Origin: a virus
Lineage: Duplodnaviria > Caudoviricetes
Length of the DNA stretch: 61,766 bases
Virus record (IMG/VR): IMGVR_UViG_3300027756_001348
Location: 1 to 61,766 of that record
Direction: 5' to 3' (one strand)
The notes under the pieces were generated by a model. It searched no databases, was not told where the DNA came from, and saw only the letters and a program-made list of their open reading frames with translations. This document shows positions 9,597 through 30,858 of this stretch, piece by piece. Made by a program: the position numbers and the translations under genes. Position 1 is the stretch's first letter; the number at the start of each line of letters is the position of its first letter.

Positions 9597-9643
9597 TCCA
9601 CACAGATATCAAAAATACATCAGTGGCCCAGCACAATCATCTA

Positions 9644-9673
9644 TTGACAATCATCACATAATATGTTTAAATA
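9644..9673 (+). promoter_or_regulatory. Promoter for the tmRNA
   Basis: TTGACA at 9644; TG-n-TTAAAT/TAAATA 17-18 nt downstream. Confidence 0.6.
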
Positions 9674-9677
9674 CTGC

Positions 9678-9990
9678 TGTAGGCGATGATACGTTTGTAA
9701 TAAACAATGCGGACCAGGGGGCAGTACCCTGCACCTCCACCAAATTCACTCGCATAAAACACAATTTTTTGATTGTGTTTTGCGGGGGTGAAATAGAATC
9801 GACGATTGTGTAAAAAAACGAGGAGTCTTCCAGTGAGGCACCCTGTCAAGGTCCAAACTTACAAATGCTAACAAGCGTTTCGTATCAGAAGTAAAAATTC
9901 CTTCTAACTTTGTTGTTGGAAGAGAATTATTGGCAGCCTAATAATCTGCTACTTCGGAGCGTGATCACACTTGGCAACAGAACGTGATCA
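9678..9990 (+). ncRNA. ssrA: Circularly permuted two-piece tmRNA (alphaproteobacterial type): acceptor piece ending CCA 9742, intervening hairpin 9751-9784, coding piece from 9784
   Basis: T-arm CAGGG-GGCAGTA-CCCTG followed by CACCTCC-A-CCA precedes GGGGGTG-AAATAGAATCGAC; the 7-bp acceptor stem has G3:U70; tag ORF 9867-9941 ANKRFVSEVKIPSNFVVGRELLAA followed by TAA TAA; outer ends approximate. Confidence 0.93.
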
Positions 9991-10015
9991 GTGGTGGGAG
10001 GCAACTCCCACCATT
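9990..10015 (+). terminator. GCAA-tetraloop hairpin at the tmRNA 3' end
   Basis: TGGTGGGAG-GCAA-CTCCCACCA. Confidence 0.65.
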
Positions 10016-27244: not shown

Positions 27245-27829
27245 ATGTTAGTGATAGGCAATGGCGAAAGTCGAAAAAATATAAACCTTGACAAAATCAA
27301 TGAGATTAAAATAGGCTGCAATGCCATATTCCGCGACTGGCACATGGATCATCTGATCTGTTGTGATCGCAAAATGGTATTGGAATCCACACATGAAATA
27401 GATTGTGCCAAGACAAACATATATGTGAGACCAGAATATCTCCACATGCATGCTCATTTGAAACCTTTGCCCACACTGCCTTACACAAGTGATTTGAGGC
27501 AGGATCAAGCCATACATTGGGGCAGTGGTCCTTATGCTGTGTTGTTGGCCGCTCAATTAAACACTGAGATGACGCCCATTCAACTGTTGGGCTTTGATCT
27601 GTATGGCCAGGGAGAACACATCAACAATGTGTACAAGGATTCCTATGGCTACAACAAGAGTTCAGAGCGTGCAGTGGATCCTAGATACTGGATACATCAA
27701 TTGAGTAAGATATTTGAACTACATACCAAAATGTCTTTTGAAATCTATGTGCCAGACAACTTTGTGAAGCCCATGATGTGGAATCATGCCAATTTGGAAT
27801 ATAAGAGCTTGACAATGTTGCGGCAATAA
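27245..27829 (+). CDS. Rossmann-like transferase (DUF115/MptE/sialyltransferase-like)
   Basis: VIGNGESR, GCNA, SG..A, LLGFD motifs; ATAAATA 5 nt upstream. Confidence 0.6.
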   Translation: MLVIGNGESRKNINLDKINEIKIGCNAIFRDWHMDHLICCDRKMVLESTHEIDCAKTNIYVRPEYLHMHAHLKPLPTLPYTSDLRQDQAIHWGSGPYAVLLAAQLNTEMTPIQLLGFDLYGQGEHINNVYKDSYGYNKSSERAVDPRYWIHQLSKIFELHTKMSFEIYVPDNFVKPMMWNHANLEYKSLTMLRQ

Positions 27830-27873
27830 TGTAATAATGTATGATGTTTGTGATATATAATGATTGCACACAT

Positions 27874-27936
27874 AGAGGACTTGGTATAATCCCTCTTTAA
27901 AAATTCTTCTACCATATTGAAAGGTAAAATATGGTA
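27874..27936 (+). promoter_or_regulatory. Candidate preQ1-I-like riboswitch (H-type pseudoknot) with a start-codon-sequestering alternative hairpin
   Basis: P1 AGAGG/CCTCT, loop ACTTGGTATAATC, A-rich tail TTAAAAA, P2 TGGTA/TACCA; rival hairpin TACCATATT/AATATGGTA covers the queD ATG. Confidence 0.65.
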
Positions 27937-28455
27937 AAATATTACAGCACAAAAACATACGGCAATGACCGAGGACTGTCATGTTGTTTTAGACAATGGC
28001 AGAGCACACATTCACATTGTTCTTTATTGCATGGTTATTCTTTAGGAATTAAATTAACATTCGAATCAGAAACACTGGATGATCGCAACTGGGTGATGGA
28101 TTTTGGTGGACTCAAAGCATTCAAAGAGTGGAGTGAGTACATGTTTGATCACACACTGGTGGTGGCTGAAAATGATCCACACATGGACAAATTCAAAGCA
28201 TTGGCAGCGTTGGGATTGAATTCAGTGGGAGGTATCTGTGATCTACGCATTGTGCCAGCAGTGGGCTGCGAAAAATTCAGCGAACTGGTGTACAATGAAA
28301 TGAACAAAATATTAAAAACATTCCAAACAGGCAAAACATACAAACTGCCCAATGGCAAAGGATTTGACTGCAGATATCCTGTGGGCCAAGGTGTTCGATT
28401 AAAATCTGCAGAGGTTTTTGAACACGCTGGAAATTCTGCTATTTACGAAGCCTAA
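27931..28455 (+). CDS. queD: 6-carboxy-5,6,7,8-tetrahydropterin synthase / PTPS
   Basis: SHC.LLHGY, V.DFG.LK, FDH, C/E and V.E...N.A.Y motifs. Confidence 0.88.
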   Translation: MVKYYSTKTYGNDRGLSCCFRQWQSTHSHCSLLHGYSLGIKLTFESETLDDRNWVMDFGGLKAFKEWSEYMFDHTLVVAENDPHMDKFKALAALGLNSVGGICDLRIVPAVGCEKFSELVYNEMNKILKTFQTGKTYKLPNGKGFDCRYPVGQGVRLKSAEVFEHAGNSAIYEA

Positions 28456-28471
28456 ATAAATATCCTAGGAT

Positions 28472-29176
28472 ATGTCTAATAGATATGTGGTGTGCCTCAA
28501 ACATGGCACCAAGTATGATGCGCAATATGTGAATGTGTTGAGAAAAATGACTCAACGCAATCTTACCACACCACACGAGTTTGTGTGTTTCACAGAAGAT
28601 CCCCGAGGCATAGATGCAGGCATCACAATCATACCTTTGCCCACCATTCCACTCAAAGGATGGTGGTTCAAACCCTTGTTGTTCAATCCTAGTCTACAAA
28701 TTCAAGGCACCATGCTGTTTATTGATTTAGATGTGGTTATTTTTAAAAACATAGACAAACTTTTTGATTACAAGCCAGGTGAGTTTCTTATGTGTCGCGA
28801 TTTTAACAGATGTTTTCAACCAGAATGGAAAAAGATGAACAGCAGCGTGGTGCGCTGGAATACTGGACAACATCCACAGCTCTACAATAATTTTATATCT
28901 GATCCACACAATATTAGTAAAAGATTTCATGGAGATCAGGATTGGTTGTATGATCAGGTTAAAAATCATTACAGTTTCTGGCCTGATGCGTGGATTCAAA
29001 GTTACAAATGGGAAATGCGTGGTAATCCTAAATTAGTGCGAACTGCTCAAGGAGTTAAAAATTTTACTGCTCCAGGTGAACCCATAATCAAAGATGAAAC
29101 TGCTGTGGCTGTGTTTCACGGTGATCCCAATCCTAGAGACTGTGTAGATCCTTGGTGTCAAACCCATTGGAAATAG
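28472..29176 (+). CDS. GT-A fold glycosyltransferase
   Basis: C.K.G.KY...YV, F.CFT, GWW.K, DLD (DxD), NSSV, GDQ, FHG.P.P. Confidence 0.8.
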   Translation: MSNRYVVCLKHGTKYDAQYVNVLRKMTQRNLTTPHEFVCFTEDPRGIDAGITIIPLPTIPLKGWWFKPLLFNPSLQIQGTMLFIDLDVVIFKNIDKLFDYKPGEFLMCRDFNRCFQPEWKKMNSSVVRWNTGQHPQLYNNFISDPHNISKRFHGDQDWLYDQVKNHYSFWPDAWIQSYKWEMRGNPKLVRTAQGVKNFTAPGEPIIKDETAVAVFHGDPNPRDCVDPWCQTHWK

Positions 29177-29190
29177 TCATTTAATTCACA

Positions 29191-29219
29191 TTGACTGCAG
29201 TCAAAATATCGCATATACT
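29191..29219 (+). promoter_or_regulatory. Sigma70 promoter with a perfect 14-bp palindrome over the -35, leaderless transcript
   Basis: TTGACT-N17-TATACT; TTGACTGCAGTCAA; ATG 5 nt downstream. Confidence 0.75.
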
Positions 29220-29224
29220 ACAGT

Positions 29225-30277
29225 ATGATTAAAAGAATAGGTTTTTGTTGTGATTATTTTCATCATGACCGTACACTGACTAAAAAACAATTGGAAGAAA
29301 TTGAACGTCCACGCAACACCAGAGCTACCACCGTGCGTTGGCTGAACGAACACAAAGCACAAGCAGAAGAAAAGTTGGATTTTGTATTCAAACACAACAT
29401 AGAAGCCATTAAAAATTTAATATTAAAGGTGAGTGAATTGCCACTCAGCAGACGTATGTGCAGAATCAGTTCAGGCATATTGCCTTGTGCCACTGAAAAC
29501 ACTTGGCGCTACTATTGGGACAAGCCCGAAATTATCAATTATTGTGAAAAACATTTTGGTGAAGCAGGTGAGTTGGCTCGTAAACATGATGTGAAGATAT
29601 CATTTCATCCAGGACAATACACAGTGTTGGCTTCTGTGAGTCCTGACATAGTGGACCGCAGTATAGATGAATTTGAATATCATGTGAACATGGCCCGTTG
29701 GATGGGATTTGGCAAACAGTTTCAAGACGGTTGTAAAATCAATGTACACATATCTGGTAGGCTGGGACCAGATGGCATCATCAAGGCTTTGCTTAGATTA
29801 TCGCCCGAAGCACGCAATCTCATCACCATAGAAAATGATGAAATGGGTTGGGGACTGGATGCCACACTGCAATTGGAAAAACACTTGGCACTGGTGCTGG
29901 ATATACATCACCATCTGATTAGAGATGAAGAATACATCAGATCTAATGATGACAGAGTTAAAAGAGTGGTGGATTCTTGGCGTGGAGTAAGACCCACCAT
30001 GCATTATTCTTACTTTAGAGATGAAGCACTGCAACCTGCTTTTGATGCAGATATTCAGCACATGATGCACAAAAATATGTTGCCCATCAAAGACATGCTG
30101 ACACTGGGTTGCAAAAAAGTTAAGTTGAGAGCGCACAGTGATATGTTGCCCAATGCTGCACAGAATGAGTGGGCATTGTCATTTCTAAACATGTTTGATA
30201 TACAAGTGGAAGCCAAATCCAAGAACTTGGCAGCAGAACAACTGCACAATCAGGCATTGACTTTGGGTTTACTATAA
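29225..30277 (+). CDS. uvsE: UV damage endonuclease
   Basis: RIGF.C, R.SS, HPGQ, IEND, LDIHH, HYS, AHSD, VEAK.KNLA. Confidence 0.9.
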   Translation: MIKRIGFCCDYFHHDRTLTKKQLEEIERPRNTRATTVRWLNEHKAQAEEKLDFVFKHNIEAIKNLILKVSELPLSRRMCRISSGILPCATENTWRYYWDKPEIINYCEKHFGEAGELARKHDVKISFHPGQYTVLASVSPDIVDRSIDEFEYHVNMARWMGFGKQFQDGCKINVHISGRLGPDGIIKALLRLSPEARNLITIENDEMGWGLDATLQLEKHLALVLDIHHHLIRDEEYIRSNDDRVKRVVDSWRGVRPTMHYSYFRDEALQPAFDADIQHMMHKNMLPIKDMLTLGCKKVKLRAHSDMLPNAAQNEWALSFLNMFDIQVEAKSKNLAAEQLHNQALTLGLL

Positions 30278-30288
30278 TAAATACTGCC

Positions 30289-30858
30289 ATGCAAGACATG
30301 AAGCAGTGGATCGAATTGTTCGAAACCAAACAAAAACGTGAAAAAACTCTAGTGTTGGAAGCATTGCCTTATGGCATGGGTGAATTAGATCCTGTGTTGA
30401 GCCGTGCCAATGTGGAATATCATTACGGAGTATTGAGCAGAGGTTATGTGAACAGATACAACACAGGAGAAGGTGATCCTGATTTCAATTATGGCGGAGC
30501 AAAATTGCACAATCTATTCTGGGCTCAATTGCAGCCAGTCAAAGGCAGCAACACACCACGTGGTGCCATTATGGAATTCATCAATAAACATCACAAAAAC
30601 TTGGATGCATTTAAAGAAAAATTATTATTGGCCACAATGAAATTGCAAGGATCAGGATGGGTGTATCTCAGCAAATCAGGTGAAATTAAAACCACACCCA
30701 ATCAAACCTATCGCTTAGACATACTCATGCCCATTGATCTTTGGGAGCATTCGTTCATGGACTATGTGCCAGCCAAGGATGCTAAAAAACGCTACATCAC
30801 TAATATCTTCAAAATAATCAATTGGTCTACAATTAACGACCGTTTGAACTCAAAATAA
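30289..30858 (+). CDS. sod: Fe/Mn superoxide dismutase-like protein with N-terminal extension
   Basis: LPY...L.P, YH, LHNLFW, QGSGW, DLWEH (four ligand positions present). Confidence 0.85.
   Translation: MQDMKQWIELFETKQKREKTLVLEALPYGMGELDPVLSRANVEYHYGVLSRGYVNRYNTGEGDPDFNYGGAKLHNLFWAQLQPVKGSNTPRGAIMEFINKHHKNLDAFKEKLLLATMKLQGSGWVYLSKSGEIKTTPNQTYRLDILMPIDLWEHSFMDYVPAKDAKKRYITNIFKIINWSTINDRLNSK

What the first reader, a model, noticed from the sequence alone, without database searches (positions are those of the whole stretch)
27874..27936. preQ1-I-like riboswitch variant apparently wired as a translational ON switch for phage queD
Seen: downstream of sigma70-like promoter elements, stem P1 AGAGG(27874-78)/CCTCT(27892-96) closes a 13-nt loop ending in C and is followed by an A-rich tail TTAAAAA. 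Loop bases TGGTA (27882-86) can pair with TACCA (27910-14) to form an H-type pseudoknot. The same TACCA is part of a perfect 9-bp rival hairpin, TACCATATT (27910-18)/AATATGGTA (27928-36), which buries the queD ATG and loops out the AAGG SD. Known: class I preQ1 aptamers have this layout (5-bp P1, a ligand-pairing C at the loop end, A-rich L3) and normally switch que genes OFF. Differences here: the first loop base is A rather than U, L3 is longer and P2 has 5 bp. Inference: pseudoknot formation would free the start codon, so ligand would turn QueD ON. That fits feed-forward sensing of a guanine-faced precursor (GTP or dihydroneopterin triphosphate, the QueD substrate) rather than preQ1 feedback. 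It may be an undescribed, phage-borne riboswitch variant with altered specificity.
Basis: partly seen in the sequence, partly recalled or inferred. Interest (0 to 1): 0.87.

Follow-up and report, generated by a model that had tools for sequence, protein, structure and literature searches.

The report
Phage QueD-leader pseudoknot ON-riboswitch candidate
The short leader in front of this uncultured giant phage's QueD-like gene folds into a small RNA pseudoknot that hundreds of related phages keep through compensating mutations; it matches no catalogued RNA family and looks like a relative of the class I preQ1 riboswitch, wired to switch translation on rather than off.

Summary
On its own the window's fold is unremarkable (z -1.31). 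The support comes from comparison. Leaders of two protein-anchored sets of uncultured phage contigs carry the same motif: 73 of 80 QueD-like 174-aa loci and 76 of 80 loci of a second 168-aa PTPS-family paralog.

P1 is 99.5-100% paired and covaries at 2-3 of 5 pairs. The pseudoknot helix P2 is 87-94% paired, with double changes at 6-7 of 7 pairs.

In at least four different expression-platform designs, the 3' strand of P2 also pairs with the start codon or the Shine-Dalgarno sequence. A stabilised pseudoknot should therefore free the ribosome site, giving an ON switch.

Rfam 15 has no match at gathering score. The PreQ1 model reaches only 11 bits on one relative.

The carrier phages encode FolE, a QueD-like and a QueE-like enzyme, but no detectable QueC or DpdA/TGT. 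The ligand is unknown.

Earlier notes of this scan reached the same reading on many other genomes. Verdict: a real, apparently undescribed, phage-specific preQ1-I-like riboswitch candidate. Ligand binding and switching are untested.

The parts
27809..27838 (+). sigma70-like promoter, TTGACA / 18 nt / AATAAT with TG upstream
   Evidence: 11 of 12 matches. The same elements are kept in the window's clade, L001-L010. It is a consensus match only, and no transcription start was mapped.
27849..27868 (+). small upstream hairpin (P0-like), TGTGAT 27849-54 / ATTGCA 27863-68
   Evidence: Read. The stem is TGCGAT/ATTGCA in L001 and TGTAATT/AATTACA in L003, so it covaries within the clade. It is seen only in this clade and its function is unknown.
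27874..27878 (+). P1 5' strand, AGAGG
   Evidence: Pairs with 27892-96. P1 is 99.5% paired on 43 sequences and 100% on 52 rows, with double changes at 2 and 3 of 5 pairs.
27879..27881 (+). L1 (A-C-U). The first base varies in the family; C and U are conserved.
   Evidence: 83 distinct aptamers. Position 1 is A 29, C 25, U 29. Position 2 is C in 83 of 83. Position 3 is U in 82 of 83. L1 length is 3-9 nt.
27882..27889 (+). P2 5' strand: UGGUA (variable part), U27887 (mismatch partner), A27888-A27889 (junction pairs)
   Evidence: The junction triplet is UCA/UGC in 76 of 83 aptamers. It is UAA/UUC here, and UUA/UAC or UCG/CGC elsewhere, which are compensatory changes.
27890..27891 (+). L2 (U-C). 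C27891 occupies the position of the preQ1-I specificity cytosine.
   Evidence: The last L2 base is C in 83 of 83 aptamers. The positional analogy follows PMC10622847. Its function was not tested.
27892..27896 (+). P1 3' strand, CCTCT
27897..27906 (+). L3, UUAAAAAUUC (family consensus W-U-A-N-A-N-A-Y-U-C)
   Evidence: A at L3 positions 3, 5 and 7, U at 9 and C at 10 are each present in 83 of 83 aptamers.
27907..27914 (+). P2 3' strand: UU (junction pairs), C27909 (mismatch), UACCA
27910..27936 (+). rival hairpin, TACCATATT / AATATGGTA (9 bp). It shares 27910-14 with P2 and covers the start codon.
   Evidence: -8.9 kcal/mol for the platform alone. The duplex beats all 300 shuffles for the window.
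27921..27924 (+). Shine-Dalgarno AAGG, in the loop of the rival hairpin
   Evidence: Close relatives carry the stronger AAGGAG here.
27931..28455 (+). 174-aa QueD-like PTPS-family gene
   Evidence: Pfam PF01242, 9.7e-13. phrog_2389, 9.8e-36. NCBIfam QueD 37 bits, below the 89.25 cut-off. It is 45-50% identical to QueD-like genes of cultured phages.

Best explanation
The leader at 27874-27936 is a phage-specific riboswitch candidate. Its aptamer (27874-27914) is an H-type pseudoknot related in layout to class I preQ1 riboswitches:
- a 5-bp P1;
- L1 beginning N-C-U;
- an 8-layer P2, made of 5 variable pairs, a U.C mismatch and two conserved pairs;
- a 2-nt L2 ending in an invariant C directly before the P1 3' strand;
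- a 10-nt A-rich L3.

The 3' strand of P2 is also the 5' arm of a helix that buries the start codon (here) or the SD (in other clades).

Inferred mechanism. Without ligand the more stable sequestering helix forms and translation of the QueD-like gene is off. A small ligand stabilises the pseudoknot, pulls the shared strand out of the sequestering helix and frees the ribosome site, so translation is on. The ligand probably has a guanine-like face read by the invariant C.

Shown here: the conserved structure, the covariation, the mutually exclusive alternative pairing, and the strict association with PTPS/QueD-type genes.

Inferred only: that a ligand binds, which ligand it is, and the direction of switching in vivo.

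My rough guesses for the ligand:
- a pterin substrate such as 7,8-dihydroneopterin triphosphate or a derivative, about 30%;
- a 7-deazaguanine (preQ0, preQ1, CDG), about 25%;
- guanine or another purine, about 15%;
- something else or nothing, about 30%.
For: Structure:
- P1 is 99.5% paired over 215 cells with 2 of 5 pairs covarying, and 100% over 252 cells with 3 of 5 covarying.
- P2 is 93.6% paired over 266 cells with 6 of 7 pairs showing double changes. In the independent paralog set it is 87.1% paired over 264 cells with 7 of 7.
- With partners slid by 1-3 columns, pairing falls to 19-45%. None of 500 shuffles reaches the covariation score.
- Junction pairs change compensatorily. C-G becomes A-U in the window clade and U-A in L264. 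A-U becomes G-C in L252, L261, L262 and L272.
- Unpaired positions are invariant in 83 distinct aptamers taken from protein-anchored loci.

Distribution:
- 73 of 80 loci of the 174-aa type carry the motif.
- 76 of 80 loci of the 168-aa paralog carry it.
- Of 201 instances, 193 sit directly before a PTPS-family gene.
- Each of 5 near-complete giant-phage genomes has exactly one strong copy.

ON wiring:
- The P2 3' strand region pairs with the SD or start region better than 95% of shuffles in 46 of 51 and 32 of 45 distinct leaders.
- This is achieved by at least four designs: TACCATATT/AATATGGTA, GTCATTGTT/AACAATGGC, GTCATC/GATGGC and CCTATG/CATAGG.
- The platform helix is predicted to be more stable than P2 alone (mean -9.1 against -6.2 kcal/mol over 51 leaders).

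Transcription: contigs from RNA libraries of two studies bridge the leader and the ORF. This is weak evidence.
Against: - No ligand binding or switching was tested, and no tool here can test it.
- The window's own fold is not thermodynamically exceptional (z -1.31).
- The sequences are related, so counts of cells overstate the number of independent events.
- In the second set, 13 of 45 leaders miss p<=0.05 in the platform test, although all have p<=0.13.
- The energy comparison sets a bimolecular duplex against a hairpin and ignores tertiary contacts.
- Positive regulation of the first committed enzyme of a pathway is unusual. Known preQ1 riboswitches all repress (PMC10622847 and PMC11625349, passages read).
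- RNA-library contigs cannot show strand, start or level, and may contain DNA.
- In some genomes (G006) only 11 nt separate the upstream gene's stop from P1. The element can therefore lie inside a polycistronic message. That fits translational control but leaves the promoter unknown.
Confidence: 0.6

Rival explanations
1. It is a ligand-independent RNA device. The conserved pseudoknot and its competing helix would set translation of the QueD-like gene by binding a phage or host protein (for example autoregulation by the enzyme), by temperature, or by folding kinetics and coupling to translation of the upstream gene. No small molecule would be involved.
For: The structure and the alternative pairing are all that is shown. 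In G006 the aptamer starts 11 nt after the stop codon of the upstream HIT gene, so upstream translation could influence folding. No ligand is known.
Against: Eight unpaired positions are invariant in 83 distinct aptamers: L1 C and U, the L2 C, and L3 A3, A5, A7, U9 and C10. A small, compact, single-copy element tied to one enzyme family is the usual signature of a metabolite-binding pocket. The layout also mirrors a known ligand-binding fold. In the window and many relatives the element follows its own promoter-like site rather than an upstream gene.
Confidence: 0.22
2. It is an ordinary member of the preQ1-I class that senses preQ1 or preQ0 and represses queD, as bacterial preQ1 riboswitches do.
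For: It has the same general fold, a P1 of 5 bp, a C before the P1 3' strand and an A-rich L3. There is a weak PreQ1 model hit on L062 (11.0 bits, E 4.5). The downstream gene is QueD-like.
Against: Rfam gathering score is not reached in the window or in 20 of 80 related loci scanned, and there is no PreQ1 hit at E<=10 on the window or the L027 leader. The SD is not part of P2. Instead the P2 3' strand is an anti-start or anti-SD sequence, which predicts activation. The L1 first base and the last L3 bases differ from the ligand-contacting U and A described for preQ1-I.
Confidence: 0.05
3. It is a coincidence or a DNA signal. TGGTATAAT (27882-27890) inside the 'loop' would be an extended -10 promoter, transcription would start downstream of it, and the aptamer would never be made as RNA.
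For: The loop contains a perfect extended -10 consensus. Two RNA-library contigs begin at 27880 and 27889, although contig ends show nothing about transcript starts.
Against: TATAAT in the loop is confined to the window's clade. Other clades have GACGC, GGCAT and similar there, yet keep the fold through compensating changes on both strands of P1 and P2. Covariation of that kind is a property of RNA pairing, not of a promoter. Conserved promoter-like elements lie upstream of P1. Two RNA-library contigs run through the whole leader into the ORF.
Confidence: 0.02

Closest known systems
preQ1-I riboswitch (Rfam RF00522; types I-III)
   Same: It is an H-type pseudoknot with a 5-bp P1 whose consensus (A-G-N-G-G / C-C-N-C-U) matches the Rfam consensus line printed. 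A cytosine sits directly 5' of the P1 3' strand, at the place of the specificity C. L3 is A-rich. The element is associated with a 7-deazaguanine-pathway gene. The family features are taken from passages of PMC10622847 and the abstract of PMC11625349.
   Different: It scores far below the family threshold (11 against 39 bits at best). P2 has 7 pairs plus a U.C mismatch instead of a few pairs. L2 is 2-3 nt. L1 is 3-9 nt with a variable first base. L3 has 10 nt and ends in invariant U-C rather than A. The SD is not in P2, and the P2 3' strand instead masks the start codon or SD, so the predicted logic is ON. It was found only in uncultured phage DNA.
Translational ON riboswitches such as the adenine (add) riboswitch
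   Same: The logic is the same. Ligand-stabilised aptamer folding withdraws a strand from a helix that masks the ribosome-binding site.
   Different: The aptamer fold is unrelated (a three-way junction rather than a pseudoknot), the ligand is different, and it occurs in bacteria rather than phages.
Specificity variants of purine riboswitches (2'-dG, 8-oxoguanine, xanthine). PMC10556655 was seen in the search listing only.
   Same: They are a precedent for a known fold re-tuned to a related ligand, which is the most novel reading here.
   Different: Those variants keep the parent family's architecture and score with its model. This motif does not reach the PreQ1 model's threshold.
Other H-type pseudoknot riboswitches (preQ1-II, SAM-II/V, guanidine-III; recalled)
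   Same: They are compact two-helix pseudoknots with the ligand at or near the helix junction.
   Different: No Rfam model of these classes matched at E<=10 on the window, L027 or L062 leaders. The conserved loop sequences are different.

Membership tests
preQ1-I riboswitch (RF00522) | Score at or above the Rfam gathering threshold (39 bits) | tested here: not met
   There is no PreQ1 hit in the window at gathering score or at E<=10 on 27780-27990. There are 0 hits in 20 of 80 related loci and none on the L027 leader. The L062 leader scores 11.0 bits, E 4.5.
preQ1-I riboswitch (RF00522) | H-type pseudoknot with a 5-6 bp P1 and a P2 formed between the hairpin loop and the 3' tail | tested here: met
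   P1 is 99.5-100% paired and covaries. P2 is 87-94% paired and covaries. However, P2 is much longer (7 pairs plus a mismatch) than described for the class.
preQ1-I riboswitch (RF00522) | Specificity cytosine at the end of the loop, directly before the P1 3' strand, that pairs with the ligand | tested here: inconclusive
   A C occupies that position in 83 of 83 distinct aptamers, and in the window it is C27891. Whether it pairs with a ligand cannot be tested here.
preQ1-I riboswitch (RF00522) | Conserved U at the first L1 position and an A at the 3' end of L3 that read the ligand's other edge (PMC10622847) | tested here: not met
   The first L1 base is A 29, C 25, U 29 of 83. L3 ends in U-C in 83 of 83 aptamers, followed by the paired U-G-C.
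preQ1-I riboswitch (RF00522) | A-rich L3 lining the minor groove of P1 | tested here: inconclusive
   A at L3 positions 3, 5 and 7 is invariant. The tertiary role is not testable with these tools.
preQ1-I riboswitch (RF00522) | The SD sequence is sequestered in or next to P2, so the ligand represses (OFF) | tested here: not met
   P2 3' strands (UACCA, GUGUC, AUGUC, CGCCU and others) are not SD-like. They pair with the start codon or SD in the alternative fold.
preQ1-I riboswitch (RF00522) | Binds preQ1 (or preQ0) | not testable with these tools
   This needs in-line probing, ITC or SPR.
Riboswitch in general | A conserved structured aptamer in a leader, with covariation and conserved unpaired positions, plus an expression platform sharing nucleotides with the aptamer | tested here: met
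Riboswitch in general | Direct, specific binding of a metabolite that changes gene expression | not testable with these tools
QueD (6-carboxytetrahydropterin synthase) for the downstream gene | NCBIfam equivalog cut-off, and pathway partners in the same genome | tested here: inconclusive
   TIGR03367 scores 37 bits against a cut-off of 89.25. The protein is 45-50% identical to QueD-like genes that sit in QueE-QueC-QueD-FolE-DpdA clusters of cultured phages. In 10 related giant-phage records: FolE 10 of 10; QueE-like 10 of 10, of which only 2 are strong (family check); QueC 0 of 10 convincing; TGT/DpdA 0 of 10.

The most novel reading that the evidence does not exclude
This is a new, phage-only riboswitch class that descends from (or converges on) the preQ1-I fold but has a remodelled pocket and a different ligand. 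The ligand would be an early intermediate of the pathway, such as dihydroneopterin triphosphate, CPH4 or CDG. The switch would work as a feed-forward ON switch for the first committed enzyme of a QueC- and DpdA-independent 7-deazapurine pathway in freshwater giant phages.
Probability: 0.3. Interest if true: 0.9.

Novelty: new variant of a known kind. Interest (0 to 1): 0.8.

Why it matters
Riboswitches are reported to be very rare in phages. McCown et al. 2017 (PMC5473149, passages read) found almost none and suggested that phages may use classes not yet discovered.

This motif is a compact RNA of about 45 nt with hundreds of natural variants. Its pseudoknot is well supported. It has an activating design that no described preQ1 riboswitch uses, and it gates a modified-base pathway in giant phages.

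If a ligand is found, three things would follow:
- a new specificity or logic variant of one of the best-studied small aptamers;
- a ready-made small ON switch for synthetic biology;
- a handle on what these phages make from GTP without QueC or DpdA.

Tried and rejected
Rfam:
- Gathering-score scans of the window and of 20 of 80 related loci gave nothing for this region.
- Permissive scans of three leaders gave only chance-level hits (STnc240, SAM-VI, cow-rumen-4, MIR5643, ROSE_3), plus the 11-bit PreQ1 hit.

Pterin and folate idea:
- I first suspected the gene was a pterin or folate enzyme rather than QueD, because QueC and TGT were absent.
- DHPS and HPPK are also absent, in 0 of 5 genomes each.
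- Homology to QueD-like genes of cultured phages and nearby QueE-like radical-SAM genes point back to a 7-deazapurine route. I dropped the folate reading.

Downstream gene: the window's gene at 28472-29176 (PHROG 'glycosyltransferase') is not homologous to the weak GT2-like genes that follow the switch-controlled gene in G001 and G006. No conserved partner gene could be claimed.

Pairing ideas:
- A base-triple idea, with L1 C-U docking on the junction pairs, found no covariation and was not pursued.
- Pairing of the conserved UCUGC with P1 or with downstream sequence was considered. It was rejected because UCUGC is invariant while P1 varies. Its U-G instead pairs with the C-A of the loop.

Alignments: MAFFT alignment A4 mis-registered P2, so I did not count on it. 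I used a model-guided alignment instead, which leans towards the modelled structure.

Distribution:
- Bacterial genomes: 14 pattern matches. Seven look like chance (P1 with 3 or fewer pairs). Seven look real, but all lie on MAG contigs.
- Cultured phages: BLAST with two leaders found nothing in 50,697 records. This search is insensitive for such short RNA.

RNA libraries: parts of the stretch without contig cover, and contigs beginning at 27880 and 27889, say nothing about transcript ends.

Literature: seven searches found no description of this element. Subscription journals and supplementary files were not visible. The original type 1-3 definition paper (McCown 2014) was not read.
Full report
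**What is in the window.**
- P1, AGAGG 27874-78 with CCTCT 27892-96;
- a 13-nt loop ending in C27891;
- an A-rich tail;
- TGGTA 27882-86 complementary to TACCA 27910-14;
- a perfect 9-bp hairpin, TACCATATT 27910-18 with AATATGGTA 27928-36, that covers ATG 27931-33 and leaves AAGG 27921-24 in its loop.

The predicted minimum-energy fold of 27870-27945 is P1 plus that hairpin (-13.5 kcal/mol). This is not unusual for the composition: z -1.31, and 21 of 200 shuffles fold at least as well. A promoter-like site (TTGACA, 18 nt, AATAAT, with TG) lies at 27809-27838. Such sites are as frequent in shuffles, with 7 found against 8.0 expected.

The downstream ORF 27931-28455 is a PTPS-family protein:
- Pfam PF01242, 9.7e-13;
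- PHROG 'QueD-like', 9.8e-36;
- NCBIfam QueD, 37 bits, below the 89.25 cut-off.

The window is a 61.8-kb fragment of an IMG/VR virus record estimated 17% complete.

**Known RNA families.** Rfam 15 finds only a permuted tmRNA in the window at gathering score. On 27780-27990 at E<=10 it returns three chance-level hits and no preQ1 family. Twenty of the 80 related loci gave no hit at gathering score. Two further leaders were scanned permissively:
- L027 gave no PreQ1 hit.
- L062 gave RF00522 at 11.0 bits, E 4.5, against a gathering score of 39. That alignment places P1 and the UCCC-P1'-UAAA segment in the same register as the family consensus.

The resemblance to preQ1-I is therefore visible but far below membership.

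**Relatives, first set.** A protein-anchored search of IMG/VR with the 174-aa protein matched 426 stretches, 425 of them relatives, and the best 80 were kept (72-99% identity). Printing the 130 nt upstream and parsing them showed the same motif in 73 of 80 loci. The seven without it are L013, L024, L026, L039, L044, L052, and L038, which has no upstream sequence.

On 43 distinct sequences (A1), P1 is paired in 99.5% of 215 cells. Double changes occur at 2 of 5 pairs (C-G 19, A-U 18, U-A 6; and A-U 37, U-A 5). None of 500 shuffles reaches the covariation score, and slid controls give 39-69%.

P2 has a fixed register. It uses the five bases immediately 5' of the last five loop bases and the five bases immediately 3' of the conserved UCUKC. 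On 38 gapless sequences (A2), the five core pairs are formed in 173 of 190 cells, each with double changes.

**Relatives, second and independent set.** In L021, L082, L092 and L095 the motif precedes a different gene. This is a 168-aa protein that is also PTPS-family (PF01242, 1e-12 and 6e-15). A second protein-anchored search with it kept 80 loci out of at least 590 relatives.

A covariance model built only from the first set (R1) hits 76 of these 80 loci just upstream of the gene, at 23-67 bits and E<=8e-5. Three of the four misses (L239, L247, L270) have no room upstream. L253 has room but no hit. P1 is 100% paired over 252 cells there, with three covarying pairs, including G-C to C-G and to U-A at the second pair.

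**A longer P2.** The loop bases U-C-A that follow the variable part of P2 face the U-G-C that precedes the P2 3' strand. C-G and A-U pair across a conserved U.C mismatch. Compensatory changes are:
- A-U instead of C-G in the window's clade (TAATC with TCTTC);
- U-A in L264 (TTATC with TCTAC);
- G-C instead of A-U in L252, L261, L262 and L272 (TCG with CGC);
- U-A instead of U.C in L274.

Counted with the tool:

| Alignment | Cells paired | Pairs with double changes | Slid controls |
|---|---|---|---|
| A2 (set 1) | 93.6% of 266 | 6 of 7 | 19-43% |
| A5 (set 2, model-guided, so leaning towards the structure) | 87.1% of 264 | 7 of 7 | 19-45% |

In window coordinates, P2 is 27882-27889 with 27907-27914, L2 is U27890-C27891, and L3 is 27897-27906.

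**Consensus from 83 distinct aptamers of the two protein-anchored sets.**
- P1 has seven sequence types, and only the two G-C pairs next to the loop are invariant.
- L1 is 3-9 nt. Its first base is free (A 29, C 25, U 29), followed by C in 83 of 83 and U in 82 of 83.
- The variable part of P2 has 38 types.
- The junction is UCA/UGC in 76 of 83.
- L2 is UC 63, CC 9, AC 5, UUC 4, CUC 2, with the last C invariant.
- L3 is W-U-A-N-A-N-A-Y-U-C, with A3, A5, A7, U9 and C10 invariant.

**Gene association and copy number.** Among 201 motif instances held:

| Gene directly downstream | Instances |
|---|---|
| 174-aa PTPS type | 126 |
| 168-aa PTPS type | 67 |
| Methyltransferase followed by the 174-aa gene | 2 |
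| Other ORFs | 3 |
| Cut by contig ends | 3 |

Five near-complete giant-phage genomes (332-519 kb, 95-100% complete) each hold exactly one strong copy, always this leader. The window has one (50.2 bits; next best 11.2).

An exact-pattern scan of one genome per prokaryotic species gave 14 matches. Seven look real, and all seven are on MAG contigs. BLAST of two leaders against 50,697 GenBank phage records found nothing.

**Expression platform.** In every clade the P2 3' strand continues into a helix with the ribosome site. At least four designs exist:
- TACCATATT/AATATGGTA, in the window's clade;
- GTCATTGTT/AACAATGGC;
- GTCATC/GATGGC, with an inner anti-SD segment;
- CCTATG/CATAGG, over the SD.

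Sequence changes are matched across the two strands. TACCAT pairs with ATGGTA here and TGTCAT or TGCCAT pairs with ATGGCA elsewhere. GTCGTC pairs with GATGAC in L295.

The duplex between this strand and the SD or start region beats 95% of shuffles in 46 of 51 distinct leaders of set 1 and in 32 of 45 of set 2, with all 45 at p<=0.13. The platform fold is predicted to be more stable than P2 alone (means -9.1 and -6.2 kcal/mol over 51 leaders; a rough comparison). Because the two structures share nucleotides, whatever stabilises the pseudoknot should expose the start site. This is the basis for the ON reading. It is an inference.

**Pathway context.** The closest cultured-phage homologues (107 records, all below 60% identity, best 45-50%) are annotated QueD-like. 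In Pseudomonas phage Iggy the gene lies in a QueE-QueC-QueD-FolE-DpdA cluster without a leader.

In ten related giant-phage records:

| Enzyme | Result |
|---|---|
| GTP cyclohydrolase I (FolE) | 10 of 10 |
| QueE-like radical-SAM gene near FolE or the switch-controlled gene | 10 of 10; 65-75 bits in two, only 22-29 bits over the N-terminal motif in eight |
| QueC | No convincing match; Pfam gives one partial 26-bit hit; Iggy's QueC-like protein gives 0 of 10 |
| TGT/DpdA | 0 of 10 by Pfam and by Iggy's DpdA |
| DHPS, HPPK | 0 of 5 each |

For two of the QueE-like genes, the best NCBIfam families are the five QueE models, all below their cut-offs.

Two gene orders were read:
- G006: FolE - HIT - aptamer - PTPS168 - weak GT2-like - methyltransferase - unknown - QueE-like, continuing downstream.
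- G001: the controlled gene is followed by methyltransferases, a xanthine-PRT-like phosphoribosyltransferase and the QueE-like gene.

This suggests a 7-deazapurine route that stops at or branches from CDG and may use a phosphoribosyltransferase. I recall such a route from tubercidin and toyocamycin biosynthesis but did not check it here. FolE lies outside the switch and the first committed enzyme lies under it.

**Transcription.** Twenty-four metatranscriptome runs hold the stretch. In two runs from two studies, a single contig spans 27489-28086 and 27455-28371 respectively. These run from the upstream gene through the whole leader into the ORF. These are contigs. They cannot show strand, ends or level, and DNA may be present in RNA libraries.

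**Comparison with what is known.** According to passages of PMC10622847 and the abstract and term search of the 2024 family review PMC11625349, all preQ1-I types:
- are H-type pseudoknots with a 5-6 bp P1;
- have an A-rich L3 in the P1 minor groove;
- have a specificity C, plus a U (L1) and an A (end of L3) that read the ligand;
- repress by sequestering the SD.

The review has no occurrence of 'phage', 'queD' or 'on-switch'. This motif shares the fold, P1, the C and the A-rich L3. It fails on the model score, the L1 U, the L3 A and the SD-in-P2 design.

McCown et al. 2017 (PMC5473149, passages read) state that riboswitches are rarely found in phages and may belong to undiscovered classes. Seven full-text searches found no description of this element. 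The one phage paper holding all four terms only cites a preQ1 review.

**Earlier notes of this scan.** The same motif has been noted and followed up many times on other genomes, with the same reading (336 notes in at least 258 genomes). I treat this as agreement, not as independent evidence.
- the extended P2 with its compensatory junction pairs;
- the quantified second paralog set;
- the finding that carrier genomes have FolE plus QueD-like plus QueE-like genes but no detectable QueC or DpdA.

**Verdict.** The structure is real and under selection as RNA. ON wiring is the best-supported mechanism, at about 0.6 including the assumption that a small ligand exists. Membership in preQ1-I is not supported, but 'works like a preQ1-I-type pseudoknot with inverted logic' is. 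The ligand is open.

Noticed in passing
window 9640-9992 (+): A permuted (two-piece) tmRNA gene is encoded by the phage. Rfam alpha_tmRNA scores 116.5 bits and tmRNA_permuted 98 bits.
   Followed up: no
window 27849-27868 (+): A small hairpin lies upstream of P1 and covaries within the window's clade (TGTGAT/ATTGCA here, TGCGAT/ATTGCA in L001, TGTAATT/AATTACA in L003). It recalls the optional P0 stems of some riboswitch leaders.
   Followed up: partly
window 27882-27890 (+): The aptamer loop of this clade spells TGGTATAAT, a perfect extended -10 box. Other clades lack it, so it is probably a by-product of P2 (TGGTA) plus the A-U variant of the junction pair.
   Followed up: partly
L013:2870-3012: This is a natural variant without the aptamer. 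A promoter-like site is followed directly by the platform remnant (CAAACTTACTC...GGAGGCAAGAGATGG). The anti-start strand is gone, so expression is probably constitutive.
   Followed up: no
L084 and L089 (marine MAG contigs), motif near L084:2027-2065 and L089:4931-4969: A marine variant in front of another QueD-like gene has a very short platform. There the P1 3' strand (CCCUCUCU) rather than the P2 3' strand can pair with the SD region (GGAGAGAUGGG). This is a fifth way to reach the same logic.
   Followed up: no
L299 (G006:203500-212000) and L298 (G001:157500-171500): These giant phages carry FolE, a QueD-like gene, methyltransferases, a QueE-like radical-SAM gene, a xanthine-PRT-like phosphoribosyltransferase, and HIT and cytidylyltransferase-like genes. 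No QueC or DpdA/TGT is detectable. This may be a DpdA-independent 7-deazapurine nucleotide pathway.
   Followed up: partly
L299:2171-2185: In G006 the aptamer's P1 begins 11 nt after the stop codon of the upstream HIT gene. The switch can therefore sit inside a polycistronic FolE-HIT-QueD message.
   Followed up: no
60 nt upstream of P1 in 165 distinct flanks (loci): ATAAATA, which resembles the T4 late-promoter box (recalled), occurs in 49 of 165 flanks against 6.3 expected from shuffles. TTGAC occurs in 54 of 165.
   Followed up: partly
window 27931-28455 and L021:2495-3001: Both PTPS paralogs share C-x-[FY]-R-Q-W and S-H-C-x-x-[LI]-H-G-Y motifs. Against E. coli QueD (PDB 4ntm) the last His of the H-G-H zinc motif is Tyr. 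The metal site may therefore differ from canonical QueD.
   Followed up: partly
window 28472-30858 (+): The genes after the QueD-like gene are a PHROG 'glycosyltransferase' with no Pfam hit, a UvdE UV-damage endonuclease and an Fe/Mn superoxide dismutase. This is a stress-protection neighbourhood that varies between relatives.
   Followed up: no
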